Below are positions 1-14,500 of a stretch of DNA of 64,000 nucleotides, piece by piece. Source of the stretch: a virus; the IMG/VR virus record IMGVR_UViG_3300005096_000005, positions 106,139 to 170,138 of that record; one strand, given 5' to 3'. The position numbers were made by a program, and so were the translations under genes. Below the pieces are notes generated by a model, which saw only the letters and a program-made list of their open reading frames with translations, ran no database searches and was not told the origin of the DNA. Each line of letters opens with the position of its first letter. The stretch's first letter is position 1.

Positions 1-3000
1 GAGCGAACTTTTCCCACATCCAACCAAGAGTTCTCTCTACCGCAGAAGCGTCCTTTGGATCGGGTTTACCAACATAGCGATACTCTGTCTTGCGATACTT
101 CTGAATCCTTCGCTTATGGTTCTCCAGAGTCCGCTCAACCTCACTCCACCTGCCCTGTTGCATAATCGCTTCCTTGTCCCGAAACATCCTTCGCCTCATA
201 GCCCAGAAAGACTGGGAGTAAGGAGCCACATCTGCAAGAATCTTGAACTTGTCTACATCACTATAGAACTCAGGTCTGTTCAGGATACCCTTCCTGTCCC
301 AGTCGGACACAATCTGCCGCGCATGTTCTACAGTTTCCAGGTCACGTTGCAGCCTCTCCGGGTCGTAATGAACTTTGAATACTTTGGTCACATCCGGCTT
401 GTCTCTTGCTGTGTAGTATATGAACCCGAACGGAAGCCCCTGTGAATACAGGTAGAAATTGACCTGGGACATGTGCTCTTGCTGCGGCGCCTCAAGCTCC
501 TTGATGGCCTTCGCCGACTTTGTTTTGATCTCCACTACGGTGTTATAACCGTTCTCCATTCTCACTACTGCATCAATGTGCCCACTCACCTTGGTTCTGG
601 GATCGAACACGAAGCGCTCAGCCTCAATCAGAGAGCCCTCTTTAGCCCACTGCGCCTGCAGCCTCCGGTGGGCCTTGGTGCCTTCATACGTGGGCGAACC
701 TGGCCCTTCATACGGCAACCTGCCTAAACCTTTTCCGTTGGGGTCATAGTCGTGTGCTTCACGGCCCAGGTTTAGGAAGGACGCCACAGTAGTCTTCAAG
801 TCTCGACCAAGAGATGATGCGCGGAACTGTTCAATGCCATAGTTTCCATGATACGCCCGAAGGGTTGGGTGTAACTTCTCGTATCCAGGTCCCGGCAGTC
901 TGGCCTCGCCAAAAGCCACCTTTGTAAACGGATCTCCTTTGTGAAAATCTATATAATAGTTCTGCTCAACCCCGGTGGTTCCCGGCATCCACGACGGCAT
1001 CTTGTTCAAGATGGGGTTGTACTCAAGAATCTGACGGCGTCTGTGTGGCAGAAAACGACGCCCTATCTCAGACACACCTCCGCCAAGTCCACCGATACCC
1101 TGGTCCCAAAACCACCTCTCAGCCCCATAGGCCCTATCGGCTCTCTGAGCCACCGGCTTCTGCGCTCCCAGGTCCCCGTAGCCATACTTGTCCTGCGTAA
1201 AGAAGGTAGACGCAAACCCGAAAATACCCGCTGTCTCCGTTATGTTATAGTGAATCTGTCCAAGCCTGTAGTACGGATCGTTGGGATGAATGACCTCTTC
1301 CGGATTGATCTTACGGTGGAAGTAGCTGAGGCGCCGCGACATTCTCCGCCTCATCTTTCGTCTGTCATCGGTATTGATGGCGGTAATTTGGTTCTCTGCC
1401 GAATGATCTTCCGACATTACCGGGATAGCCTGACCTGTCGGAGTTGCTCCTGCAAGAAGCCCAACGTATGTAGGGGTGACAGCTCCCGTTCCTCCTCCCC
1501 CTGGACCTATCAGACGGACTCCCTGTGTCGTTCCCTGACCAAGCTGTTCCGGTCCTGGGGTGGTCCCAAGCTCGATGAGCGCTGCCTCCAGTGCCGGGTG
1601 CCTGTTTCTCTGACCTCCAAGGAATGCGGCTCTGGCGTTTAGTTCTTCACGATGCATAACCTTGTACGGTTTAATGATACGCCCTACCGTTGCGTTGAGT
1701 ATTCCACCGAACGGCATAGTCTCCTCGAACGCTCCTCCGGTTAGCGGGTAGGGCCTGTCGGCATAATGCTTCTTCTCCCACCAATACGGGTCGGTCAGCC
1801 TTTTAAGGGGAGACAGAGGATAGCGCGGAGTTGGTAGCCAATAGTGTTGCCAGAACTCGTCGCTACCTCCCCACAAAGTATCCTCGCGGTATCCGCTGGT
1901 TCCTCGACGGTACCAATTCGGCACCTGAGCGGTAATACGACCGCCTCCCCATGGACTGTTACCGAGAAGCCACCAACGACCGCGACGTACGTCTTCGGTA
2001 CCTTCTCTGTACCACTCCTTAAGTTCCTCCTCGTTTTGCGGGACGTTAAACCCAAGTGCACCCGCGATCATCCCGGGTGGAGACTCCATGGCAATATCCA
2101 TACCCGGGTACGCCTCATGAATTCTCTTGAATTCGTCTGTTAAACCCACCGTGTCGAACACCTTGGCGATGTCCAGGCGCAACCCTACATAAATATTGGC
2201 GAGTCTTCGGGAAAGCCTGACCCTTGGTGTGTCGGGAAGACTGAATGCGTCGTCTGCTTTCTCGGACTCCCAATCGATGTATGCCAACAGCCCTGCGCCT
2301 GCAACAACCGGAGCTACACGATACTTGAACAGGTTATAATAAGTTCTGGAAGCTGTTCCCAGCTTATCAGGAGACAGAGAAAAACCAAGACCGTACTCAC
2401 CGAGACCACGGCTGAGGCGCTGTGTCAAATAGGTGGGCCAGAACATCGTGGTTGAAAGGTGGTCCAGATCTGTGGTAAGTTTGCCACCCTCCCACTTGTC
2501 CGGCGAAAATTGCTTCCACATCTTTCTGATCACAGTAGCAAGACCGTGCTCATCCTGTCCTGAATAAAGACGACTCAGGTTCTTCCACGTTTCTTTGATA
2601 CTACCCGTCACATCGAATGGGTCAAAACGGAAAAGGCTCTTCTGGAGCATCAGGTTCTCGCCAAGCCCTCGACGGTACACATCCGCAAACTCATCGTACG
2701 GAGGGAACTTCTGGTACCACTTTCCGAAATGTTTATTCGCTGATGCCTGCAACCTGTTCACAAAACCCTCGCTAACATCTACAGGATCACGAGTGCTTGT
2801 GGAGACCACTTCGTACACGCCCTCTTCGACCGGCCGCATACTAACCCTGCCTTTTTGAAATGCCTCGCTCAGGTTTATTCCACGCTCTTTAGCCTTTTGC
2901 TCCAGGACATCCATCAACTGTTCGAAAGTCGGATCGCCTGCCACACCAACCTTCATTAGCGAATCTGTCCGCACCGTCTGTGACGTTCTGGGTGCAAACA

Positions 3001-6000
3001 ATTTGAGGGCCTCCTCATAAGTGTCAACAAAAGCTTTCTGTCTGACAGCAGGCCCGTGCCCTGCTACCTTCCGCAAATTGAACAGGTCGAAGGTGCGATG
3101 CATATTCTCAACTTCCACGTCCGTAAGAACAGTACCAAGCTGATCGATAAACCGCCTTGCATTATCGATCTCACTGAGGGCGCTGCCAACGTAATACTCG
3201 TTTAAAGCCTCCCTCGCGGCTCGCCCTACCGTCTTGACAATCTCTTCATCTGTTTCAAGAAAAGGAATAAACGGTGAAGGAAGTCCTGGTCGTACATCAA
3301 TACGCGCTGGACGTGTCGGGTCGATCTGGGAGCGGAGCATCTTCATGGTCTTTGATAACGGTGCGTATTCAAGTTGTTCCTTCCTGCGTTCCAACTCAAG
3401 TATCTGCTCGCTCAGGTCCTGAATTCTCCTGCCTCTCATAACCGCCAGGTTCTGGGCTATCTGTTTTGCATCACTGACATAATCGAGAGGAGATTCCGGA
3501 CCACCAATCGCCGCCGCCTTGGTTTCTTGTTCCGTGAGCCGGTCGACAAGCTTCCTGGCATCCTTCATGGCCATGTGCTCTCCGCCGACTTCCTTCTCTG
3601 CAAAGTCGATGAAGTCTTCGATCATATCCTTCATCTCTGGCCTGTTTTTATAAGTGTCGGCGAACTCTCTCATAATCTGGCGCTTGTCAAACGACTTCGG
3701 CCCGTTCATGATTCTGTGAGAGATAGACTCAAACAAAATCTGACGCTCTTCAGGCATTGCCCATTCCACATACTTATCCCCAGAATATGGGCGAACCTTC
3801 TCAACAGGAGCCAGCGGCCCCCACGTCTCCGGCTTACCCGCCTTAATCTTAGTTTCGTATGTTCTTGCCCATCTGCTGGCGAGCGCATGTGCATCCAGCT
3901 CCGAACTACTATAAAGACTCATGCGGTCAAACTGAGCGATACGTTCCAACACTTCGTCAACCTGTCCCGTGAGGCGTTCCCGCGCCGCAAGGAACTCCGC
4001 CTGGCTGATCTTTCCAGCCCCCAGCATATTGATAAGCTCTTCCTGTCTGCCGATAAGGGCCTGACCTTCTTTGGTGGCCTCCATCCAATTCTTAGACAGC
4101 GGCGCCAAACCGGAGTCTGCCATAAGGCGCTGTTCAACCCTGCCCTGAAAACTCATCAACTCCTCTACCGCTTGTTCCTTCATCTGCTTGCGCAGTGCCA
4201 TAGAATCGGCTACTCCACCAGGATCTATCGCCCCTTCCTGAAAGAACCTTTCAAATGTACTCGTTCGCCACTTCTCAGACCGGGTGGGAACAACACCACC
4301 GCCCGCTGCCAGGTCCGCACCACGCTGAGCGAGAATCTCCTCGGCAGTCTTGACCTGCATCTCCCGGGTCGCTTCTTTATATCCTGCTTTGAATGGCTTG
4401 ATGTCATAGCCTACCTGGTCCATTGTTTCACGATACAAACGCCATAGATCACTCCGCTGCTCTCTCTGGAGTTTCACCTTCCTGGCCGGGACCTTGACGA
4501 CAGCACCGTCTCTTGTCGTCGTGAATCCTACCCCGGCTTTTTCCAATGCATCCTCTAACTGAGACTTCAGTTTGGACGGCATTTGTATCTCACGGGACTT
4601 GACCGCCTCATGGATCTGCAATAATCGATCCTGGACTGGCGTTCCTTTCTGGAACTTGAAGTGTTGCTTGAACAGGTACTGCTGCTTCTTATCAAAGTGG
4701 GGGATACCGCCCCGCTGAGCCGCCTCGATGTATCTGAGAAGGAACCTGTTCTGCTGACGTTCGAGTTTGTATATGTCTCGTTCGATATCGGCCGCATCAC
4801 CATGCCTAACGATATTAAACAGGTGTTCCAGGGCGTCGGCGTCAGTTCTGAGATACGTAGAGAAGGGCTTCTCCATGCCATCGATCCTGTGGGTTACTTC
4901 AAGCATCTTGGATAGAGCATCGACGGACTCCGCGGAACCGAGCACCTGCGCTCTCTCGGTGGCCTGTTTCACAGGCATCCCCTTGACCTGGTGCAGGTAG
5001 GTAGCGAGATCGTTGTCGCCCTTCTTTGCCCATTCCAACAGCTCGGAGAGCTTGTCCCTGGTCGCGCCCGTCATCGAGGTGGCGTCCTTCTCGAGAATCC
5101 TCTCCACTACTCCGAACACGTCCTTTGCCCCCATGGGCTCTCCTGTTGTTCGGCGCAGATCCTTGACTATGTTTAAAACTTCAATCTCACGTCCGGCCTC
5201 AGTAGCCGCTTTCGCTTCCTCGGCCAGTCGCTTTGCTATGTAATTCGGATTAGAGGCTTTGTACGGATCTTTCCAATGTCCTATAAGGCGCTGAAAGAAC
5301 CCTGTTGGTTCCCGATTCTGGTTGAAGTCGAGCATCTTGAATACTTTGCCGATCGCCGGATTCTCATTCAGCTTGCCGCCCCGCATCATCGCCATATCTT
5401 CCGTTATCTCTTTACCAAAGAAGATATTATCAAAGATCCAGCGCATAGGCCCAAAGCGATTGGTCACCGGATTCAACCCAACTCCGAAGGGCATCTCCTC
5501 CGGTTTCATAAAAGCACCCGTCTCCAGATTAAACAACCGGGCGCCCCCTTTAGAGTGCCCCTGGCCGAGTACCAGCATCTGCTGTTTGATGTTCCCGGCC
5601 TTATCGATAGCATGTTCCCATCCAGATACCTTTTTGACCCATCCGAGTTCAGGATGTTCAGTTCCAAAGTGAAGAAGCTGATACGGCGCCATCCGTCTGT
5701 TCTCTCTTAAGGCAGAGTGAAAGAACAATTTGGCGGGATTGAATCCCACAATAGGAATCTGGAAGTTCCGCTCAAAGGCCCCGGCTATATCGTCCAGTCC
5801 AAAGCCGACCTTTCTCAAATCGATAACCTTGCCTGTCGGGTCCTTAAATATGAACGGGTCCACGACCACATTGCCAAGCCGTTTTACATACTGCTGTTCT
5901 GCGTTGGCGAGAATACGTGACTTCTGAAGTTCGAACTTTGCGAGCTTCATCGCCTGTTCTTCCGTGAGGTTGCCGAACATTCTCTCGGCGGCCGGTGTAC

Positions 6001-7102
6001 GCAAATAATCCTTCACCGCCGCTTCACCAATGTCGTCAGCCAGAGCTCCGGGGATAGGAACATACTCGGCTCTCTTCCCAAAGAAACCAACAAGGTCGGG
6101 GATATTAAATGCTTTGAGTCCAGGTCCCTCTGCTACATCCTGAATTGTGGCAAGCTTCCAACCCGCCATTCCCTGGACCATACGAGAGAAAGGATGAGCT
6201 GCCTGATAAACGTCCTGTCCCATAGTCGCGGATACTGCATCAATAAGCTTGTTTACTATATCGCCCCGACCGGCCTGTTCTCTTACCTGTCTAGTGGTCG
6301 TGAGCATTATGTTTTGCCAGGCATGAGCTGCTATGTTCGCGTCAGCTGCCGATAACTCCCCTCCCCCAAGGGCTGCAGCTATGTCTCTCAGTTTCGCTGG
6401 CTGGTCCGTCATCAGGGATTCCCAGGACGCAAGCTCTTTAACACCCTGTACGCCACCACCCTGACCACGATAGCGTTTGCCCATAGTTACCATACGTTGC
6501 ATCTCGTCCAAAACGCCCATAGCCGGTTCGCTGACGGAATCAATGGGATAACCTATATTAGAGAGGATTGTTGGTATCTTCTGTCTACTTAGAAAAGAAC
6601 GAAGCTGCCCCTGCATCTCTGGGGAAAGGTGTTGTGGGGAGCGAATCTCCGTCGCCACGTCTCCCACATCACGGACAACGCCCCGCATCCCGCGGAGCAT
6701 ATCACCGAGAGCTGTGGCATTGGCCACATTATCTGTAAGGGTTGATCTTGTGGTTGCTGCCGCTTCCGCAAAGACGCGGCGGGCTGCCTTGAGGTTTTCT
6801 CCCGTGAATGCAGAGAACTTCGGCAGTGCGCCAACCGAAGTTCTCCACAAGAGGTTCTGGTCGGCCAGAAGTCTGAAGTATTGCTCATGGCCTTCCAGAA
6901 GAAAACGATGTGCCTGCGAAACCTTTGGGATCTGTCCCGCAAGATGCTCTACAATATCTCCCACAAGCGGTCGGACGTACTCAGAGCGAAGAACCTGGCG
7001 CCCCAGGAGGGCGGCACCGGCGTATATACCTGCACGGACCAGGAGCGGCGTCTTCTTCCGCTCGTTTGTGTATGGGGCATCATTGCTGAACTTCGAGATC
7101 AT
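1..7102 (-). CDS. Giant virion protein (tape-measure-position / putative ejected protein), >2360 aa, truncated at window edge; contains PD-(D/E)XK nuclease domain
   Basis: ATG at 7102 overlaps the upstream TGA (ATGA). Reads MISKFSNDAPYTNERKK... Every segment I translated is open, and the ORF track lists no terminated ORF in this frame, consistent with run-off. Follows the tail chaperone pair. Motifs: VRRGRWW, PNWYRR, DPYWWEKKHYADRPYP, GEARLPGPGYE, KFKILADVAPYS. Confidence 0.85.
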   Translation of the reverse strand, partial: MISKFSNDAPYTNERKKTPLLVRAGIYAGAALLGRQVLRSEYVRPLVGDIVEHLAGQIPKVSQAHRFLLEGHEQYFRLLADQNLLWRTSVGALPKFSAFTGENLKAARRVFAEAAATTRSTLTDNVANATALGDMLRGMRGVVRDVGDVATEIRSPQHLSPEMQGQLRSFLSRQKIPTILSNIGYPIDSVSEPAMGVLDEMQRMVTMGKRYRGQGGGVQGVKELASWESLMTDQPAKLRDIAAALGGGELSAADANIAAHAWQNIMLTTTRQVREQAGRGDIVNKLIDAVSATMGQDVYQAAHPFSRMVQGMAGWKLATIQDVAEGPGLKAFNIPDLVGFFGKRAEYVPIPGALADDIGEAAVKDYLRTPAAERMFGNLTEEQAMKLAKFELQKSRILANAEQQYVKRLGNVVVDPFIFKDPTGKVIDLRKVGFGLDDIAGAFERNFQIPIVGFNPAKLFFHSALRENRRMAPYQLLHFGTEHPELGWVKKVSGWEHAIDKAGNIKQQMLVLGQGHSKGGARLFNLETGAFMKPEEMPFGVGLNPVTNRFGPMRWIFDNIFFGKEITEDMAMMRGGKLNENPAIGKVFKMLDFNQNREPTGFFQRLIGHWKDPYKASNPNYIAKRLAEEAKAATEAGREIEVLNIVKDLRRTTGEPMGAKDVFGVVERILEKDATSMTGATRDKLSELLEWAKKGDNDLATYLHQVKGMPVKQATERAQVLGSAESVDALSKMLEVTHRIDGMEKPFSTYLRTDADALEHLFNIVRHGDAADIERDIYKLERQQNRFLLRYIEAAQRGGIPHFDKKQQYLFKQHFKFQKGTPVQDRLLQIHEAVKSREIQMPSKLKSQLEDALEKAGVGFTTTRDGAVVKVPARKVKLQREQRSDLWRLYRETMDQVGYDIKPFKAGYKEATREMQVKTAEEILAQRGADLAAGGGVVPTRSEKWRTSTFERFFQEGAIDPGGVADSMALRKQMKEQAVEELMSFQGRVEQRLMADSGLAPLSKNWMEATKEGQALIGRQEELINMLGAGKISQAEFLAARERLTGQVDEVLERIAQFDRMSLYSSSELDAHALASRWARTYETKIKAGKPETWGPLAPVEKVRPYSGDKYVEWAMPEERQILFESISHRIMNGPKSFDKRQIMREFADTYKNRPEMKDMIEDFIDFAEKEVGGEHMAMKDARKLVDRLTEQETKAAAIGGPESPLDYVSDAKQIAQNLAVMRGRRIQDLSEQILELERRKEQLEYAPLSKTMKMLRSQIDPTRPARIDVRPGLPSPFIPFLETDEEIVKTVGRAAREALNEYYVGSALSEIDNARRFIDQLGTVLTDVEVENMHRTFDLFNLRKVAGHGPAVRQKAFVDTYEEALKLFAPRTSQTVRTDSLMKVGVAGDPTFEQLMDVLEQKAKERGINLSEAFQKGRVSMRPVEEGVYEVVSTSTRDPVDVSEGFVNRLQASANKHFGKWYQKFPPYDEFADVYRRGLGENLMLQKSLFRFDPFDVTGSIKETWKNLSRLYSGQDEHGLATVIRKMWKQFSPDKWEGGKLTTDLDHLSTTMFWPTYLTQRLSRGLGEYGLGFSLSPDKLGTASRTYYNLFKYRVAPVVAGAGLLAYIDWESEKADDAFSLPDTPRVRLSRRLANIYVGLRLDIAKVFDTVGLTDEFKRIHEAYPGMDIAMESPPGMIAGALGFNVPQNEEELKEWYREGTEDVRRGRWWLLGNSPWGGGRITAQVPNWYRRGTSGYREDTLWGGSDEFWQHYWLPTPRYPLSPLKRLTDPYWWEKKHYADRPYPLTGGAFEETMPFGGILNATVGRIIKPYKVMHREELNARAAFLGGQRNRHPALEAALIELGTTPGPEQLGQGTTQGVRLIGPGGGGTGAVTPTYVGLLAGATPTGQAIPVMSEDHSAENQITAINTDDRRKMRRRMSRRLSYFHRKINPEEVIHPNDPYYRLGQIHYNITETAGIFGFASTFFTQDKYGYGDLGAQKPVAQRADRAYGAERWFWDQGIGGLGGGVSEIGRRFLPHRRRQILEYNPILNKMPSWMPGTTGVEQNYYIDFHKGDPFTKVAFGEARLPGPGYEKLHPTLRAYHGNYGIEQFRASSLGRDLKTTVASFLNLGREAHDYDPNGKGLGRLPYEGPGSPTYEGTKAHRRLQAQWAKEGSLIEAERFVFDPRTKVSGHIDAVVRMENGYNTVVEIKTKSAKAIKELEAPQQEHMSQVNFYLYSQGLPFGFIYYTARDKPDVTKVFKVHYDPERLQRDLETVEHARQIVSDWDRKGILNRPEFYSDVDKFKILADVAPYSQSFWAMRRRMFRDKEAIMQQGRWSEVERTLENHKRRIQKYRKTEYRYVGKPDPKDASAVERTLGWMWEKFA
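266..830 (-). other. Cas4/RecB-like PD-(D/E)XK nuclease domain inside the giant virion protein
   Basis: In-frame translation: FRASSLG...EGTKAHRRLQAQW...IEAERFVFDPRTKVSGHIDAVV...VVEIKTKS...EHMSQVNFYL...GFIYY. This gives the H, E, D, ExK and QxxxY motifs in order. Confidence 0.8.
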
Positions 7103-7563
7103 CGTTGCTCTCCCTCAGGACCCGGATCTTGCGGCCCGTACACTGCGTCTGTAAAGTCCTTCGGAAAAGAGAAGTCAACCTCGTTTATCATGCCCTGAGG
7201 GATTCCCATCATATCTTGAGCAAGAGCTTCCATCTTGGTTCTTCCGTGCTCGTGAAGGAACATCTCTTGCTGTTTCTTATCAATGGGACCCTTCTCACCT
7301 GGTTTGCGGTGGCGCTCTCCATATCTCCTGAGGCGCTCTACTCTCCGCGCTTCCTCAATTGCCTGTTTGCGTTCCGCCTCCACAATCTCTGGCGGCACGC
7401 CCAGCAGGATATCTACGGACACTTCCGTCATGCCCCTAAAGTTCATCAGTACATACTCTGCCTGTGCTGCTCGTTGAAGCCAGGTATCCCAGTCCATGGC
7501 CTCAATTTGGTCTATAGATAGGGTGGGGAACGCCTCCGCAATAAGGAGATCGATCAGTCCCAT
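7099..7563 (-). CDS. Tail assembly chaperone, downstream (gpT-like) part, probably expressed by -1 frameshift
   Basis: 154-aa ORF with a poor SD. Its frame is open back to the A7 slippery site of the upstream gene. Lies directly before the giant protein. Confidence 0.75.
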   Translation of the reverse strand: MGLIDLLIAEAFPTLSIDQIEAMDWDTWLQRAAQAEYVLMNFRGMTEVSVDILLGVPPEIVEAERKQAIEEARRVERLRRYGERHRKPGEKGPIDKKQQEMFLHEHGRTKMEALAQDMMGIPQGMINEVDFSFPKDFTDAVYGPQDPGPEGEQR

Positions 7564-7592: not shown

Positions 7593-8261
7593 CTACACTT
7601 TTTTTACTTCAAGGGCGGGGAGGAACCCCGACTGGTCCATAATATACTCGACAATCATGGACGGTAGTCCGTACATCTCCCTGAGAAACGCCTGGTTGAA
7701 GTCAATTCCTTCCGGCCATAAGACGCAGCGATTGCACATCTCGTTCTCGCGCTCTTCGATGGTGAACGGTCCGTAGATAATAGCCTTGTACTCTGCCCGA
7801 GTCAAGATCCGATACGTGAAGCGCATTCCATTGGGGAACAGCACCTCTCTGATCTTGTCGTCTCCAAACCCGTGTCGTGCAGGATCAAACTGCTCTCCTG
7901 GATTCGGAGGAGGCCGCTTCCATAGGGCCAGTTTTTCGGGAGGCGGCGGACTCCAATCGATTCCCTCGAGGCTGGTTCTGACCCCTCCCACTGCGTCCGG
8001 CGTCCATTCATCATCGACCGGGGGTTGCTGCGGTTGTTGCGGCACACCCTTCGGTTGCTGCGGAACCTGACCTGCTGATTGCTGTGCTTGTGGAATTCCT
8101 TGTGCCGGATAATCCGGCTGTCCCGTACCCACTTCCTCCACGGACGTATCCTGTACCTGTATTGGATCCGCCTTCTTCATAGGGCGTGCTCCTGGAGGAG
8201 GTGCGCCAGGTCCTTGTCCTTGGTTGCCATTCTGATCCATGTCAGTTGGCTCCTTTCTCAT
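7593..8261 (-). CDS. Tail assembly chaperone (gpG-like) with Q/P-rich disordered N-terminus
   Basis: FTYRILTRAEYKAI...ENEMCNRCVLWP...IMDQSGF. Sits between the tube genes and the giant protein, with a slippery site at its 3' end. Confidence 0.75.
   Translation of the reverse strand: MRKEPTDMDQNGNQGQGPGAPPPGARPMKKADPIQVQDTSVEEVGTGQPDYPAQGIPQAQQSAGQVPQQPKGVPQQPQQPPVDDEWTPDAVGGVRTSLEGIDWSPPPPEKLALWKRPPPNPGEQFDPARHGFGDDKIREVLFPNGMRFTYRILTRAEYKAIIYGPFTIEERENEMCNRCVLWPEGIDFNQAFLREMYGLPSMIVEYIMDQSGFLPALEVKKV
7598..7605 (-). other. Programmed -1 ribosomal frameshift site A AAA AAA (G)
   Basis: GTA AAA AAA GTG TAG. The -1 frame reads KK-SVDSHRRVVLSG-MGLIDLL, in frame with 7099..7563. Confidence 0.8.
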
Positions 8262-10771: not shown

Positions 10772-11503
10772 TCATGCTATCGGAATGTTCTGGGCTCCGA
10801 AATCGAACGAGGCGTCCGTTGCCGATTTGATAGGAATGATACGTCGGGCGACAAACGTCATCGCCTGTTCGATCACCGTATCGTCTACAGACATTCCAAC
10901 ACCTTCGTTGAGAATCTCTGCGTACAGAATTCTCATGGATGCGGCCTGTCCCTGTTCGTTCGCCATCGTCAGAGTGATATGGAACGCCGGAAGCTGATCC
11001 GAATACCACGGTGTTCTGCGCACGTATGCGGCCTGCAGAAGGTCCGTGAAGTTGTCATAAGCGCCCGCACCTGCCTGGCTCAACATGGAGGTCATCGAGT
11101 GACCCCATGTGTCCACTCCGAGAACCGAGTTCTCGTAATTAGAAGCGGGCAGTACGACACCCTGATTGGAATAGTCGTCCACAAACTGGCCATTGGTCCC
11201 CGGGATGTCCCGAGTGACCGCCGGACCCTGACCGGTCCTAACATTCTGCAGCTCTTCTATAAGAGCGTGGCGGTCGAACTGCACAAACACCACCGAGCCT
11301 GCGATACCGCGTTTGCCTCGTGCATAAGAGCGCGGATCCGCCGAACCGAAGGTGTAAACTGGCGCCTTCTCTCTGCGAATACTGTAGGTGATGGCCTGAC
11401 ACTCCCCGATTACGCGGTTATTGAAGATGGGAACAATGTCCGGACCACCGAAGGACGTGAACGTCCGTTCGTAGAGTGCTGATTGAGTTGCTGCTCCTGC
11501 CAT
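10772..11503 (-). CDS. Major tail tube protein
   Basis: Directly after the sheath gene, with SD AAGGAGGTG. Motif TSFGGPDIV...QAITYSIRREKAPVYTFGSADPRSYARGKRGIAGSVVF. Followed by a terminator, as expected for an abundant protein. Confidence 0.8.
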   Translation of the reverse strand: MAGAATQSALYERTFTSFGGPDIVPIFNNRVIGECQAITYSIRREKAPVYTFGSADPRSYARGKRGIAGSVVFVQFDRHALIEELQNVRTGQGPAVTRDIPGTNGQFVDDYSNQGVVLPASNYENSVLGVDTWGHSMTSMLSQAGAGAYDNFTDLLQAAYVRRTPWYSDQLPAFHITLTMANEQGQAASMRILYAEILNEGVGMSVDDTVIEQAMTFVARRIIPIKSATDASFDFGAQNIPIA

Positions 11504-11516
11504 GTTCTACACCTCC

Positions 11517-14500
11517 TTATCCTTGCGGTAGTGACAGGGACACCACTGTCGTGATCTTTCGGAGTTCGAGCCATACCACGAGCTCGAGCTCGATCCTCAG
11601 TGCGCCGATTATCTGCATGTCCCTGGTTGACAGAATGGTGAAGTTATAATCGCTGAGGACCCCCGCATCGACCATTGAGCGAAGGAATTCATCCACTTCC
11701 GTGTTGAGCGCCATTCGCTGCGGGATTGAGTTAGGCTGTCCGAGGAACGGGTTAGAAACCCTGCGCACGCCTGCCATAGCAGAGTGTACGACACGAACTG
11801 TGGACAGCCTGGTGTAGTCGGACAACCGTCCCGGCTTATTGGGCAGATCTCCGGCCGCGGTAATGCCGTCCGTAACATAGGCCACGTTATTGAACTGATA
11901 CAGCGTAACGTAACGGAAGCCCGTGAGGGCGTCAAGCTGCGCATTGCTGTAGTTATATCCAAGCGTGCCAATGTTAAGGATCGGTTTATGAGTCGTAGCA
12001 GCCTCTGCAGGCAGGGTGGAGGTAAGGGCAGCGTACACGACCTCAAGGGTCGAAGGCTGGCCTGTCGTTGCCGACAGAATCTCCGGACCTGCACAAACCG
12101 AGAGGTAACGTCCGATATCTTCCACTCTTCCATCGATTGGATTCGTGGTTCTGAAGCCGTTGTACATCGGAGTTACGAAATCGCCCACAGTCTTTGTAAG
12201 ACGGGTCACGCGAGACTGCACTCCACGCATGGAGGTGTCCGTCGCGGGGGACATAGAGATGACTCCAATACGCTCCTGCCCGTTCAATGATGTCTGGTAA
12301 CAATGTTCGGCCAGTATCTGACCAAAGTTAGTTACCGTGTCATTGCCGTTCGGATCGTTCGGATCAGCCCTCAGAGGCTTTCCGTTCGAGTCAACTATGA
12401 CTATACCGCGAGCCCCATTGTACCAGAATTTGCGGTCACGGCCAAAGTACTTCTTGCGTGACTCCGCATCCAGGTACATGTCTACAAGAACTATGATGTC
12501 GATAGGTTGGTTTTCCAGCAGTTGAAGCAGTCCGGTATCATACTGTGTGCCGAGCAGCTTCTGCGCATAGTAGCCTGGGTCCTTGCCCACACCATCATCG
12601 CCCCCAATCAGATAAGCGGGGGCAACATCTGTGTTGTCGAGCAGGTTGTGCGGCTTCTCATACTGCGGGAAGTTCGCGACAGGGTGGTCGGAGTCCGCAA
12701 CAAAGCGAGCCTCTACAACCACATTATCACGATGAGAGTTGATACCCACGGTCACGTCCTGATAGGACAGTGGCGTTGGGCTGGCGCTGAGGGCGACATC
12801 GAACTCAGAGGGGAATCCCTTGCCTGCGGGTTTCGATACACGCATCGTCATCTGGTCCGTCACCAAACTCCCCGCCAGGTCGATGGTTACACCAACGCCT
12901 GTAGTTGAGGAGGCTCCGTCCCATACGCCATTGCCGTATACGCTTCCAGGGTAGATAGCCCGCAGATAGAGGGCGACATCGGTGTAATACCAGTACTCAC
13001 CCGCCTGAAGGGAATTGCCGGAGTTGAGTGTAAAGACAGCGTCTTCATGGTCACTCTTCATGACAGTCCCCACAACAGGTGCCTGGCCGCCAGCCCCGCG
13101 TTTCATGAGAATGGCTTCACCATTGTCGTCCGCCTTAATGTAAGGAATTCGCAGCGACTCACCCGATGCCAGTGCTTCGTCCACAATGATAGAACGTCCG
13201 AATATTCCAACAGGTGATCCTTGCAGATAAGGATAGCGATATCCTCCCTCTACAATGTCGGGATTTTCGATGTCCTTGACGCGCACCTGCGCAAGCGCCG
13301 TTCCTGCTGTGCCCTGTATTACTTCTATGCTGACGGTCTCACCCGTGGGCAGTCCTTCCGGGTCCATAAGCTCAATCTCTGTAGTGCTATCCTGAATGTA
13401 AGGAAGCGTCCAGAGATTCTCGAGCTGACCGTACATAGTTGTCTGCTCTTGAAGAGCTGTGTTGATCGTGTTTGCTCCTGCAGCTCCGCCAGTGGAATCC
13501 TGGTACATTGTACCATACAGACGGAACTCCATGTCTGCTGCAAACATCACTTCCGCCGTGGGAATCCTGATCTTGCCACCGCTGGGCAACGCTCCTGTCC
13601 CATCGGGAACAGCATCGTATACAAAGCCGTCGGCTCCTGCATACACGTCGATAGAGGACACGAACGCCTTGACGTCATCGTAGAACGTAGCCGCAACCTG
13701 AATGTTCAGGCCCGGATCGTTCGAGATGTCAAAGTAGCCTGCCGCGATGTAGATGGCAGATTCTTGGGCGTCATAGTAGAACAGGTCATCCTGAGTCTCG
13801 GTCGGTACCAGCGTGGAACGCTGCAGCTGTACAGTAGCGGCCGTTGTCGTCAGGTCTACCTTGAGGTTTCCATATTGTGTCGTTCCCACCGCCGGTCCGC
13901 CGATATCCTTGTTGCCAAGGGCGGCGTTGTCGTTGGTAAACGGCACGTGATCCGGGTCGCCCACATTGACATCGTCCGGATCGAACAGTGTCATTAGCGG
14001 GTTGTAGTCCGGATCCCCCGAATCCATACTTCCGATAAACTGAATCTTGACCGGAACAAGCTCTCCGAGCTGGATCAGATCGGCCGGGTTCGGGACATTT
14101 GACGTATCTGCGTCCGTCGGATTCCACGCCTTAACGCCTGTCGTATCGTCGGTGTTCTCCGAAAGACTCATGGAGTTACCGAGGTTACTTCCGCTCATTC
14201 CCGAGGCTTTGGCTTCTACAATGACATACTCCTGGATGTTCCCCAGCCCGTCGTCTACACCTTCGCGATGAGCTTCGACATACGGGTTGATACCTGCGTC
14301 ATTGTTGATCGCGCTTGCCAGGTTCACGGCTGTGGCTGTAAGGTCGCCAGAAACAATGTTCCAGTTAAACCCTCCACCGCCGATCTCTCCGATGAAGCTG
14401 GCTGCGTAATCTGTTCCGCCATCTTCGATAGCCACCGTCAAGAGCGGCTGATTGTCAAGACCATCATCAAGGAACTGTTGGCCTGTGACGTCAAACGCGG

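What the first reader, a model, noticed from the sequence alone, without database searches (positions are those of the whole stretch)
266..830. Intact-looking Cas4/RecB-type nuclease embedded in a giant virion protein: candidate injected nuclease system
Seen: the unlisted >2360-aa ORF at the tape-measure position contains a ~190-aa segment with a full PD-(D/E)XK motif series. These are RASSLG, GTKAH (His 668-670), IEAE, GHID (Asp 572-574), EIK (524-532) and QVNFY. It lacks the Cas4 Fe-S cysteines. The segment sits between RLPGPGYEKLHP...GNY and YSDVDKFKILADVAPYS, which I recall as near-contiguous in related giant phage proteins, suggesting a discrete domain insertion. Known: proteins at this locus are usually delivered into the cell with the DNA. 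Inference: the phage may inject a nuclease before any gene expression, for genome-end processing, host DNA attack or counter-defence.
Basis: partly seen in the sequence, partly recalled or inferred. Interest (0 to 1): 0.8.

Follow-up and report, generated by a model that had tools for sequence, protein, structure and literature searches.

The report
Exonuclease domain inside giant phage tail protein
A giant tail-region virion protein of a jumbo phage carries a complete, apparently active DNA-end-chewing nuclease domain at a fixed insertion site, a feature shared by hundreds of related phages but, in the papers I could search, never described, and which may be delivered into the cell with the DNA.

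Summary
Window 266-835 (- strand) encodes aa 2090-2279 of one uninterrupted 2764-aa ORF. This is a complete RecB-family PD-(D/E)XK exonuclease domain. The AF2 model has pLDDT 87 and matches LHK-Exo (Z 14.1), Cas4 SSO0001 (13.9) and lambda Exo (12.8). H2145, E2162, D2177, E2191-x-K2193 and Q2213-x3-Y2217 are all present. The whole protein has no Cys, so there is no Fe-S cluster and it is not Cas4 proper.

The ORF is the orthologue of Bacillus phage 0305phi8-36 gp145, a virion protein confirmed by mass spectrometry. gp145 lies between the tail chaperones and the annotated tape measure, and it carries the same intact domain.

Among homologues the linker between the flanking motifs is bimodal, 23-29 aa or 190-274 aa. 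Catalytic residues are 83-99% conserved in 90 carriers. Carriage changes state only about 6 times on a 155-protein tree. Carriers are a minority (5 of 80) in an unbiased viral-contig sample, so the domain is an accessory module.

Injection is inferred, not shown. My preferred mechanism is a tethered, ejected end-resecting nuclease acting on incoming DNA ends. I found no description in the searched literature. Earlier scan notes cover this same stretch only.

The parts
2..7102 (-). First 2367 codons of a 2764-aa giant ORF, the orthologue of 0305phi8-36 gp145. It continues 1193 nt beyond the window start to G000:C1:104946.
   Evidence: tblastn to gp145 E 2e-38
266..835 (-). Inserted RecB-family PD-(D/E)XK exonuclease domain, aa 2090-2279
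   Evidence: PHROG/Pfam hits. AF2 pLDDT 86.8. Foldseek and VIA matches to LHK-Exo, Cas4, lambda Exo, MGME1, Dna2 and RecE align model residues 31-213 = aa 2090-2272.
806..823 (-). RASSLG motif (aa 2094-2099) at the N-terminus of the nuclease fold
   Evidence: Ser and Gly are >=90% conserved in alignment A1. The motif lies inside the structurally aligned range.
668..670 (-). His2145 (GTKAH)
   Evidence: H in 75 of 90 homologous domains; 9 further rows are gapped at this column
617..619 (-). Glu2162 (motif I, last E of IEAE)
   Evidence: E in 83/90
572..574 (-). Asp2177 (motif II, GHID)
   Evidence: D in 89/90
524..532 (-). Glu2191-Ile-Lys2193 (motif III, (D/E)xK)
   Evidence: D/E in 85/90, K in 85/90
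452..466 (-). Gln2213...Tyr2217 (QxxxY motif, typical of RecB/Cas4-type nucleases)
   Evidence: Q in 83/90, Y in 85/90
878..901 (-). Left flank motif RLPGPGYE (aa 2068-2075), conserved in all family members
   Evidence: this pattern alone found 352 viral-contig loci that encode relatives
215..241 (-). Right flank motif ILADVAPYS (aa 2288-2296), nearly invariant
878..2035 (-). Conserved core of the gp145 family (aa 1690-2075), fold unknown. Homologues carry inteins in its most conserved motifs.
   Evidence: alignment A2; AF2 pLDDT 74; no PDB match; intein junctions
6995..7045 (-). N-terminal hydrophobic segment (aa ~20-36), below my hydropathy threshold in P0004. A second, Gly-zipper hydrophobic segment (aa 2421-2459) lies outside the window.
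   Evidence: Read directly from the translation of P0004. The hydropathy scan found an equivalent N-terminal segment in 4 of 5 homologues scanned but not in P0004. Pfam Gly-zipper hits are below their cut-offs.
7099..7563 (-). 154-aa ORF abutting the giant ORF start; weak gp144-like (tail chaperone) match
   Evidence: BLASTP E 7e-4 to gp144
7593..8261 (-). 222-aa gp143-like tail chaperone
   Evidence: BLASTP E 1e-11 to gp143
10772..11503 (-). Tail tube protein (gp140-like)
   Evidence: BLASTP E 1e-45; phrog_9206
11517..17378 (-). 1953-aa tail sheath protein (gp139-like termini around a ~1350-aa middle)
   Evidence: BLASTP E 9e-40; phrog_16991 E 6e-80

Best explanation
Shown by the tool results: window 266-835 (- strand) encodes a whole lambda-Exo/Cas4-type (RecB-family) exonuclease domain with every catalytic residue in place. 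It sits as an in-frame insert at a fixed site in the conserved core of a 2764-aa orthologue of 0305phi8-36 gp145. Its gene lies between the tail-assembly chaperones and the next giant ORFs, which are the presumed tape measure and hub.

Inferred by homology: the protein is a virion component, because gp145 was found in virions by mass spectrometry and carries the same domain.

Proposed mechanism (inference):
- A few copies ride in or at the tail lumen with the tape measure.
- They leave the tail at infection.
- Their hydrophobic segments (N-terminal, and a Gly-zipper about 140 aa after the nuclease) anchor them at the membrane channel.
- The tethered nuclease acts, before any phage gene is expressed, on the DNA end that passes it.

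The most likely substrate is the phage's own leading end. The 5' strand of the terminal repeat would be resected, which lets the repeats anneal (circle or concatemer formation). It also makes the end a poor substrate for AddAB/RecBCD.

Rough odds for each layer: real nuclease fold 0.95; catalytically active 0.75; virion-borne 0.8; ejected into or at the cell 0.5; acts on the phage's own ends 0.3.
For: Fold and motifs:
- PHROG Cas4-like E 5e-17; Pfam PDDEXK_1 just at its cut-off.
- Family profile against Cas4 4ic1, E 1e-7.
- AF2 pLDDT 86.8.
- Z 14.1 to LHK-Exo (rmsd 3.6 A, 161 aligned), 13.9 to Cas4 SSO0001, 12.8 to lambda Exo, 12 to MGME1, 10.6 to Dna2, 10.4 to RecE. By established knowledge these are all nucleases that work from DNA ends.

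Selection:
- H, E, D, (D/E)xK and QxxxY are kept in 83-99% of 90 domains that average about 35% identity to one another.
- They are also kept in the nearest relative, P0124, which is 52% identical.
- 587 clusters at 50% identity match the domain, and nearly all of the 150 listed lie at an internal position of long or giant proteins; a few short ones look like fragments.

Insertion:
- Linker length is bimodal, 23-29 aa or 190-274 aa.
- Carriage follows the core tree with about 6 changes in 155 proteins.
- Core and domain identities co-vary, r = 0.90.

Virion and position:
- gp145 carries the GenBank note 'identified as virion protein by mass spectrometry' and has the intact motifs.
- Gene order is colinear with gp138-gp145.

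Tethering: hydrophobic segments.

A separate role from ordinary recombination: the same genome also has a stand-alone Cas4-like gene with four Cys. 0305phi8-36 likewise has a separate recB (PMC2147016).

Ends: the 0305phi8-36 genome is non-permuted with a 6.5-kb terminal repeat (PMC3357382).
Against: - No result here shows ejection, activity or where gp145-type proteins sit in the virion.
- The type phage's tape-measure label is on the next gene, and no TMP family matches this ORF.
- The domain is missing from 75 of the 80 viral-contig relatives ranked by core similarity, and 29 of 155 relatives lack both accessory modules. Whatever it does is dispensable for the basic infection cycle.
- Deletion remnants show it is readily lost.
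- The mass-spectrometry note does not say that peptides covered the nuclease part.
- The end structure of this phage's own genome is unknown, because the record is a fragment estimated at 78% complete.
Confidence: 0.4

Rival explanations
1. The protein is ejected, but the nuclease targets other DNA. Candidates are host DNA ends or replication and repair intermediates, resident plasmids or linear prophages, DNA of a co-infecting phage, or DNA components of defence systems. On this reading it is a host-takeover or counter-defence effector that arrives before gene expression.
For: - The accessory, clade-wise distribution is typical of conflict modules.
- Catalytic residues are conserved.
- Some homologues carry an S8 subtilase insert. 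That could free domains, as proposed for injected polyvalent proteins (PMC5512222).
- Large injected multidomain proteins are an accepted theme (PMC7824862).
Against: - All close structural relatives work from DNA ends, and an intact circular chromosome offers none.
- Only a few copies would arrive if the stoichiometry is tape-measure-like.
- This protein has no protease domain, and its flanking hydrophobic segments argue for a tethered rather than a roaming enzyme.
Confidence: 0.25
2. The domain is virion-borne but is not delivered to the cytoplasm. It could act outside the cell, for example on extracellular DNA in biofilm matrix on the way to the surface. Or it could act during morphogenesis, trimming or handling the DNA end at head-tail joining, as the virion-associated REase-fold head completion nuclease gp4 of T4 does in packaging.
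For: - Virion-associated nuclease folds exist in this lineage outside this gene. The BtI1 hub carries a staphylococcal-nuclease domain (PMC2147016).
- Most gp145 homologues carry an SNase-like module.
- T4 gp4 is cited in PMC7824862.
Against: - The gene sits between the chaperones and the presumed tape measure and hub, not among fibre or baseplate-periphery genes.
- The fold relatives are end-dependent exonucleases rather than matrix DNases.
- The SNase-like modules in gp145 and in the Moorella phage protein score below the Pfam cut-off and appear to lack the D-T-P-E motif.
Confidence: 0.1
3. The domain is a non-cutting DNA-end clamp or a purely structural module. It would hold or protect the genome end, like the 80alpha gp44 ejection protein or T4 gp2, and the motifs would be kept for metal or DNA binding rather than hydrolysis.
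For: - End-binding ejection proteins are known (PMC7290940, title listed).
- A Cas4-derived structural virion protein exists in TTV1 (PMC4625639).
- The domain is embedded in a very large protein.
Against: The full catalytic set (E, D, (D/E)xK, QxxxY and the N-terminal H) is conserved across domains of about 35% identity. The abstract of the TTV1 TP1 paper calls that protein a derivative of the Cas4 nuclease (PMC4625639); that TP1 lost its active site is from my memory of the paper.
Confidence: 0.1
4. The insert is a selfish, mobile in-frame element, like a homing-endonuclease insertion, that is tolerated at a permissive loop and has no role for the phage.
For: - Precise presence or absence at one site.
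- The same proteins are hot spots for true inteins.
Against: - The insert has no intein junction residues, whereas real inteins in homologues show C...HN|T.
- The domain co-diverges with its host protein (r = 0.90), with about 6 state changes on 155 proteins.
- The fold class is exonuclease, not a known homing-endonuclease type.
Confidence: 0.05

Closest known systems
Bacillus phage 0305phi8-36 gp145 (ABS83703.1, 'virion structural protein')
   Same: - Orthologue: 33% identity over 77% of the last 668 aa in the window, E 2e-38.
- Same gene order after sheath, tube and chaperones.
- Same nuclease insert at the same site, with H, E, D, DxK and QxxxY present.
   Different: - gp145 is 1930 aa, against 2764 aa here; the extra length is about 1000 aa in the N-terminal half.
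- gp145 has a further insertion of about 60 aa inside its nuclease and an SNase-like module after ILADVAPYS, which this protein lacks.
- Its nuclease is not annotated, and the 0305phi8-36 papers I could read do not discuss it.
Cas4 (SSO0001, PDB 4ic1; Pcal_0546, PDB 4r5q)
   Same: - Best sequence-profile match (E 1e-7).
- Z 13.9 with 20% identity over 150 residues.
- Same motif series, including QxxxY.
   Different: - No Cys at all, so no Fe-S cluster.
- Not next to cas genes; it is a domain of a tail-region structural protein.
Lambda Exo / LHK-Exo / RecE alkaline exonucleases
   Same: - Top fold matches: Z 14.1, 12.8 and 10.4.
- Cys-free, phage-borne, 5'-to-3' end resection that feeds single-strand annealing (established knowledge).
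   Different: - Those are free-standing toroidal oligomers made after infection and paired with an annealase.
- No Pfam YqaJ hit here.
- The oligomeric state of this domain is unknown.
T4 gp4-type head completion nuclease (TnsA-like REase fold)
   Same: A PD-(D/E)XK-superfamily nuclease that is part of the virion (PMC7824862).
   Different: It is a small separate neck protein with a packaging role, from a different branch of the superfamily, and it is not in the tail module.
Tape measure and tail-lumen proteins with embedded enzymes; ejected virion enzymes (N4 vRNAP, polyvalent proteins)
   Same: A giant protein encoded after the tail chaperones that carries an enzymatic module. The concept of enzymes delivered with the DNA is in PMC5512222 and PMC7824862. 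TMP-borne enzymes such as the wall-degrading pb2 are from my own knowledge.
   Different: - The embedded enzymes I know of in TMPs degrade the cell wall. I found no TMP-like protein with a RecB-type exonuclease in the literature searches.
- The polyvalent-protein paper does not mention tape measures, RecB or 0305phi8-36.
Genome-end-binding ejection proteins (80alpha gp44; T4 gp2)
   Same: Virion proteins proposed or shown to meet the genome ends at entry (PMC7290940).
   Different: They protect ends without cutting and are not nuclease folds, as far as I know.

Membership tests
RecB-family PD-(D/E)XK nucleases (Pfam PDDEXK_1, PF12705) | Restriction-endonuclease-like alpha/beta core | tested here: met
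   AF2 pLDDT 86.8. Foldseek probability 1.0, E 3e-6. Z 10-14 to many family members over 150-180 residues.
RecB-family PD-(D/E)XK nucleases (Pfam PDDEXK_1, PF12705) | Catalytic motifs E / D / (D/E)xK plus QxxxY | tested here: met
   E2162, D2177, E2191-I-K2193 and Q2213...Y2217 are present and 92-99% conserved in 90 homologous domains.
RecB-family PD-(D/E)XK nucleases (Pfam PDDEXK_1, PF12705) | Score over the Pfam gathering threshold | tested here: met
   22.5 bits against a cut-off of 22 when aa 2080-2290 is scanned alone. The match is missed when the whole 2367 aa is scanned, so it is marginal.
RecB-family PD-(D/E)XK nucleases (Pfam PDDEXK_1, PF12705) | Metal-dependent nuclease activity | not testable with these tools
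   Needs a biochemical assay.
Cas4 (CRISPR-associated) | Four Cys holding an Fe-S cluster | tested here: not met
   Zero Cys in the domain and in the whole protein.
Cas4 (CRISPR-associated) | Encoded with cas1/cas2 or a CRISPR array | tested here: not met
   The neighbours are sheath, tube, chaperone and hub genes.
Lambda Exo / YqaJ exonucleases | Sequence membership (Pfam YqaJ) | tested here: inconclusive
   No YqaJ hit at E <= 1. Weak PHROG hits to 'exonuclease' and RecE-like families, E 7e-11 and 5e-6. Fold Z 12.8 to lambda Exo.
Lambda Exo / YqaJ exonucleases | Toroidal oligomer that threads DNA | not testable with these tools
   This needs a solved assembly or solution data.
0305phi8-36 gp145 family of giant virion proteins | Homology of the conserved core and C-terminal part | tested here: met
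   tblastn E 2e-38. 231 homologues at E <= 1e-5. 352 viral-contig loci.
0305phi8-36 gp145 family of giant virion proteins | Position after sheath, tube and two chaperone genes, before further giant ORFs and the hub | tested here: met
   BLASTP colinearity with gp138-gp144. Downstream ORFs of 1716 aa, 1102 aa and a hub-like ORF.
0305phi8-36 gp145 family of giant virion proteins | Presence in virions | not testable with these tools
   Known only for gp145, from its GenBank note.
Tape measure protein | Match to a TMP family | tested here: not met
   No TMP family in the Pfam or PHROG hits.
Tape measure protein | First long gene after the tail chaperones; length matches tail length | tested here: inconclusive
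   It does directly follow the chaperone-like ORFs. In the type phage the TMP label is on the next gene, assigned from tail length (PMC2147016). The tail length of this phage is unknown.
Polyvalent injected proteins (Iyer et al. 2017) | Several effector enzyme domains in one polypeptide, often with a processing peptidase | tested here: not met
   The nuclease is the only recognisable enzyme domain in this protein.
Intein / homing insertion | Splice-junction residues (N-terminal C/S/T, C-terminal HN followed by C/S/T) | tested here: not met
   The insert is bounded by ...GNYG|IEQF... and ...RPEF|YSD.... True inteins in homologues show C...HN|T.

The most novel reading that the evidence does not exclude
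0305phi8-36-like jumbo phages deliver a recombination-type exonuclease as part of a tail-lumen protein. The genome's terminal repeat would then be resected at the entry channel before any gene is expressed. This would be an injected recombination enzyme that both starts circle or concatemer formation and hides the ends from AddAB/RecBCD. The SNase-like module common in the family would serve as a second DNA-handling part of the same device.
Probability: 0.25. Interest if true: 0.8.

Novelty: new variant of a known kind. Interest (0 to 1): 0.6.

Why it matters
Phages are known to carry wall-degrading enzymes in tape-measure-like proteins, and to eject polymerases and modifying enzymes. I found no report of a DNA-end nuclease built into a tail-region virion protein.

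Such a nuclease would add a new first-minute step to infection, either end processing or an attack on DNA.

It also gives a function lead for a large, unannotated family: hundreds of lineages of roughly 2000-aa 'hypothetical' proteins in jumbo phages of Bacillota and in metagenomes.

It is directly testable, because 0305phi8-36 is a cultured phage whose gp145 has the same domain.

Natural relatives with and without the domain provide ready controls.

Tried and rejected
- Megablast of the ORF against the phage collection found no match.
- Pfam on the whole protein found nothing; the domain passes only when scanned alone.
- A PF12705 search of the phage's own genome found nothing, not even this domain, so that search was too insensitive to use.
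- The conserved core (aa 1690-2075) has no sequence match in the PDB, no Foldseek match, and a best Z of only 2.8 in the wide structural search. Its fold stays unassigned.
- Atlas features gave only weak hits (score 0.84) that again pointed to the nuclease.
- A three-copy complex prediction of the domain, asking about a lambda-Exo-like ring, gave no verdict. I do not use it as evidence either way.
- Idea rejected: 'every family member keeps at least one nuclease-fold module'. It held in the first 111 proteins but failed in the larger sample, where 29 of 155 lack both.
- Idea weakened: 'the nuclease form is the majority or the ancestor'. The first hit list was biased by a nuclease-bearing query (90 of 120). 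Only 5 of 80 loci chosen by core similarity carry it. The tree is unrooted, so gain against loss is open, although deletion remnants prove some losses.
- The downstream 1716-aa ORF shows no BLASTP similarity to the gp146 'tape measure', so that equivalence is by position only.
- The 2007 Virology paper with the mass-spectrometry data is not held. I rely on the GenBank note.
- The intein or homing-element reading was rejected on the junction residues.
Full report
**1. The observation**

The - strand ORF that starts at window 7102 has no stop down to the window edge. The window is G000:C1:106139-170138 of a 170-kb viral record estimated at 78% complete. In that record the ORF is 2764 aa.

H2145 is 668-670, D2177 is 572-574, and E2191-I-K2193 is 524-532. 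RASSLG, GTKAH, IEAE, GHID, EIK and QVNFY are all found once, in that order. Translating exactly 830->266 is one base out of frame, which is trivial. The whole 2764-aa protein has no Cys.

**2. It is a nuclease fold of the end-processing type**

- Scanned alone, aa 2080-2290 hits PHROG 'CRISPR/Cas system associated' (E 5e-17), exonuclease, Cas4-domain exonuclease and RecE-like families. It also hits Pfam PDDEXK_1 just at its cut-off.
- A profile of 45 homologous segments finds Cas4 SSO0001 (4ic1) at E 1e-7 and Cas4 Pcal_0546.
- The AF2 model of aa 2060-2305 has pLDDT 86.8 and pTM 0.82.
- Foldseek's top matches are Cas4, lambda Exo, LHK-Exo, MGME1, Dna2, AdnAB, RecE and Exo5.
- Realigned, LHK-Exo gives Z 14.1 (rmsd 3.6 A, 161 residues), Cas4 13.9, lambda Exo 12.8, MGME1 12.1, Dna2 10.6 and RecE 10.4. 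The matches span model residues 31-213, which is aa 2090-2272.

So the whole 190-aa insert, including the RASSLG part, is one exonuclease domain. By established knowledge, all these relatives act from DNA ends.

It is not Cas4 in the strict sense. It has no Fe-S cysteines and no cas context.

**3. What carries it**

tblastn finds Bacillus phage 0305phi8-36 ORF145 (E 2e-38). It also finds giant proteins of Moorella phage MTATph1, Bacillus phages WH1, Edson and KLEB27-3, and Acinetobacter phage ME3.

gp145 is annotated 'virion structural protein; identified as virion protein by mass spectrometry'. It lies after the 'hypothetical tail chaperonins' gp143 and gp144 and before the 'hypothetical tape measure' gp146 and the hub gp147.

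The window is colinear with that region:

| Window ORF | 0305phi8-36 counterpart | BLASTP E |
|---|---|---|
| 1953 aa | sheath gp139 | 9e-40 |
| 243 aa | tube gp140 | 1e-45 |
| 543 aa | gp141 | 2e-11 |
| 272 aa | gp142 (weak) | 2e-6 |
| 222 aa | gp143 | 1e-11 |
| 154 aa | gp144 (weak) | 7e-4 |

The giant ORF comes next. Downstream of it lie ORFs of 1716 aa and 1102 aa and a hub-like ORF of more than 2167 aa.

This is the gp145 orthologue, one gene before the annotated TMP. It matches no TMP family. The 1716-aa ORF has no detectable similarity to gp146.

The protein has an N-terminal hydrophobic segment (read; below my hydropathy threshold in this protein but found in four of the five homologues I scanned). 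A Gly-zipper hydrophobic stretch at aa 2421-2459 lies just beyond the window. Such features are common in proteins that leave the tail and enter the membrane; that link is my own knowledge, not a result here.

The conserved core (aa 1690-2075) models moderately well (pLDDT 74) but matches nothing solved.

**4. A discrete insert, present or absent**

In 0305phi8-36 gp145 the same site holds the same domain with H, E, D, DxK and QxxxY. In the Moorella phage protein the flanks RLPG..Y and ILADVAPYS are 28 aa apart.

Among the 120 best of 231 homologues the spacing is bimodal, 28-29 aa or 190-274 aa. A few intermediates (49, 55 and 100 aa) keep only the C-terminal end of the domain, so they are deletion remnants.

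The inserts have no intein junctions. True inteins in homologues sit in the most conserved core motifs (WWxLGN|, GDPY|, DTPFH|) and show C...HN|T.

**5. Conservation**

In 90 aligned domains, conservation at the catalytic positions is:

| Position | Residue kept | Count of 90 |
|---|---|---|
| 2145 | H | 75 (9 further rows gapped) |
| 2162 | E | 83 |
| 2177 | D | 89 |
| 2191 | D or E | 85 |
| 2193 | K | 85 |
| 2213 | Q | 83 |
| 2217 | Y | 85 |

The domains average only about 35% identity to each other. The nearest relative is a 730-aa contig-end fragment, 52% identical over aa 2035-2763. It has the same architecture and the same residues.

An exhaustive search with the domain alone finds 587 clusters at 50% identity (262 at E <= 1e-10). 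Nearly all of the 150 listed lie at an internal position of proteins of 1400-4900 aa; the few short ones look like fragments. This clade of the nuclease fold therefore lives essentially inside this protein family.

**6. History**

On a tree built from the flanking core blocks, with the insert excluded, carriage needs 5 changes in 111 proteins. With viral-contig relatives added it needs 6 changes in 155 proteins. That compares with about 51 expected for shuffled labels on the larger tree, where none of 500 shuffles was as low. Core and domain identities correlate (r = 0.90; 0.36 among distant pairs). This fits mainly vertical descent with a few gains or losses.

The first sample was biased towards carriers. 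A scan of viral contigs with the core alone found 352 loci, and only 5 of the best 80 carry the domain.

This window's protein sits on a long branch next to a 29-member clade that lacks the domain. It has either kept what its neighbours lost or regained it. The tree is unrooted and cannot say which.

**7. A second module**

Between ILADVAPYS and FAHMDT most homologues have about 110 extra residues. These hit Pfam SNase at 30 and 24 bits in two members, over the cut-off of 21, and below the cut-off in 0305phi8-36 and the Moorella phage. This protein lacks that module.

All four combinations occur: both modules 78, SNase-like only 40, PD-(D/E)XK only 8, neither 29. Both are therefore independent accessories on a conserved scaffold.

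**8. Context in the same genome**

A stand-alone 301-aa Cas4-like ORF with the four-Cys pattern lies at G000:C1:45952-46857. It is 25% identical to the embedded domain. 0305phi8-36 likewise has a separate recB (PMC2147016). The embedded domain is thus an extra copy placed in a virion protein, which argues for a role distinct from ordinary replication-phase recombination.

**9. Mechanism**

Shown: an intact exonuclease domain under purifying selection, in the orthologue of a virion protein of the tail module.

Inferred: the protein leaves the tail with the tape measure and is held at the membrane by its hydrophobic segments. The nuclease then meets DNA ends at the entry site.

I favour the phage's own leading end as the substrate, for four reasons:
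- The fold relatives need ends.
- Only a few copies would arrive.
- The enzyme is tethered.
- The type phage has a non-permuted genome with a 6.5-kb terminal repeat (PMC3357382). Resection of the 5' strand would let those repeats anneal.

The clade-wise, dispensable distribution fits a counter-defence or host-attack effector about equally well. I keep that as the main rival. Extracellular or assembly roles, a non-cutting clamp and a selfish insert are less likely.

**10. Known or new**

The 0305phi8-36 papers I could read do not discuss gp145. The jumbo-phage review and the polyvalent-protein paper do not mention this family or a tape-measure-linked nuclease. Searches for virion-, tail- or injection-linked nucleases returned no such case, nor did searches on the related phages. 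Sources name the homologues 'hypothetical protein' or, for the SNase module, 'endonuclease YncB'.

Within the limits of this library, the domain is undescribed. I class it as a new variant of a known kind: virion or tail-lumen proteins that carry enzymes.

Earlier notes of this scan are readings of this same stretch from overlapping windows and add nothing independent.

Noticed in passing
L007:1264-2169 (+), = G000:C1:45952-46857, outside the window: A stand-alone 301-aa Cas4-like nuclease in the same phage genome. It has D, ExK and QxxxY motifs, one N-terminal Cys and a C-terminal CxxxxCxxxxxC pattern. It is 25% identical to the embedded domain. Pfam does not recognise it.
   Followed up: partly
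window 11517-17378 (-): The tail sheath protein is 1953 aa. gp139-like sheath homology covers only aa 5-99 and 1451-1949, leaving about 1350 aa in the middle with no family match. This is an unusually large sheath insertion.
   Followed up: partly
homologues P0021, P0029, P0036, P0098, P0024, P0030, P0047, P0081, P0096, P0058, P0017 (not in the window): Inteins (LAGLIDADG/Hint Pfam hits) interrupt the gp145-family core. Insertion points map by BLAST near P0004 aa 1712-1716, 1766-1777, 2037-2060 and 2364-2405. In three of the proteins whose junctions I read (P0029, P0047, P0058), these motifs are WWxLGN|, GDPY| and DTPFH|, with classical C...HN|T residues in the two whose ends I could read in full. 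Inteins in a tail-region structural protein mark these motifs as strongly constrained.
   Followed up: partly
homologues; site corresponds to window ~64-214 (aa 2297-2346), where this protein has only a short linker: Most family members carry an SNase-like module between ILADVAPYS and FAHMDT (Pfam SNase 24-30 bits in two members, below the cut-off in 0305phi8-36 and the Moorella phage). This protein and its nearest relatives lack it. All four combinations with the PD-(D/E)XK insert occur.
   Followed up: partly
homologues P0018 and P0098: P0018 has an S8 subtilase domain inserted in the same giant protein (Pfam E 9e-60). P0098 carries the precomputed PF00082 label only. Either could mean self-processing in some lineages.
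   Followed up: no
window 2605-5632 (-), aa ~490-1500 of the giant ORF: About 1000 aa of the N-terminal half have no counterpart in homologues, which align to aa ~410-490 and then resume from aa ~1500. This expansion accounts for the extra length over the usual ~2000 aa.
   Followed up: no
whole giant ORF (window 2-7102 and beyond): There is not a single cysteine in 2764 residues.
   Followed up: no
L002:2-14950 (-), upstream of the window in genome coordinates: Three more very large ORFs follow the giant ORF: 1716 aa, 1102 aa and more than 2167 aa. The last matches phrog_20474 (E 2e-99), the hub or lysin family. The first two match no family and show no similarity to gp146.
   Followed up: partly
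homologues P0098, P0103, P0094; locus L018: Intermediate linkers of 49-100 aa at the insertion site. In P0098 and P0094 the remaining stretch still matches the C-terminal end of the nuclease domain, so these are deletion remnants and direct evidence of loss events. P0103 is weaker, and L018 is judged only by its 98-aa spacing.
   Followed up: partly
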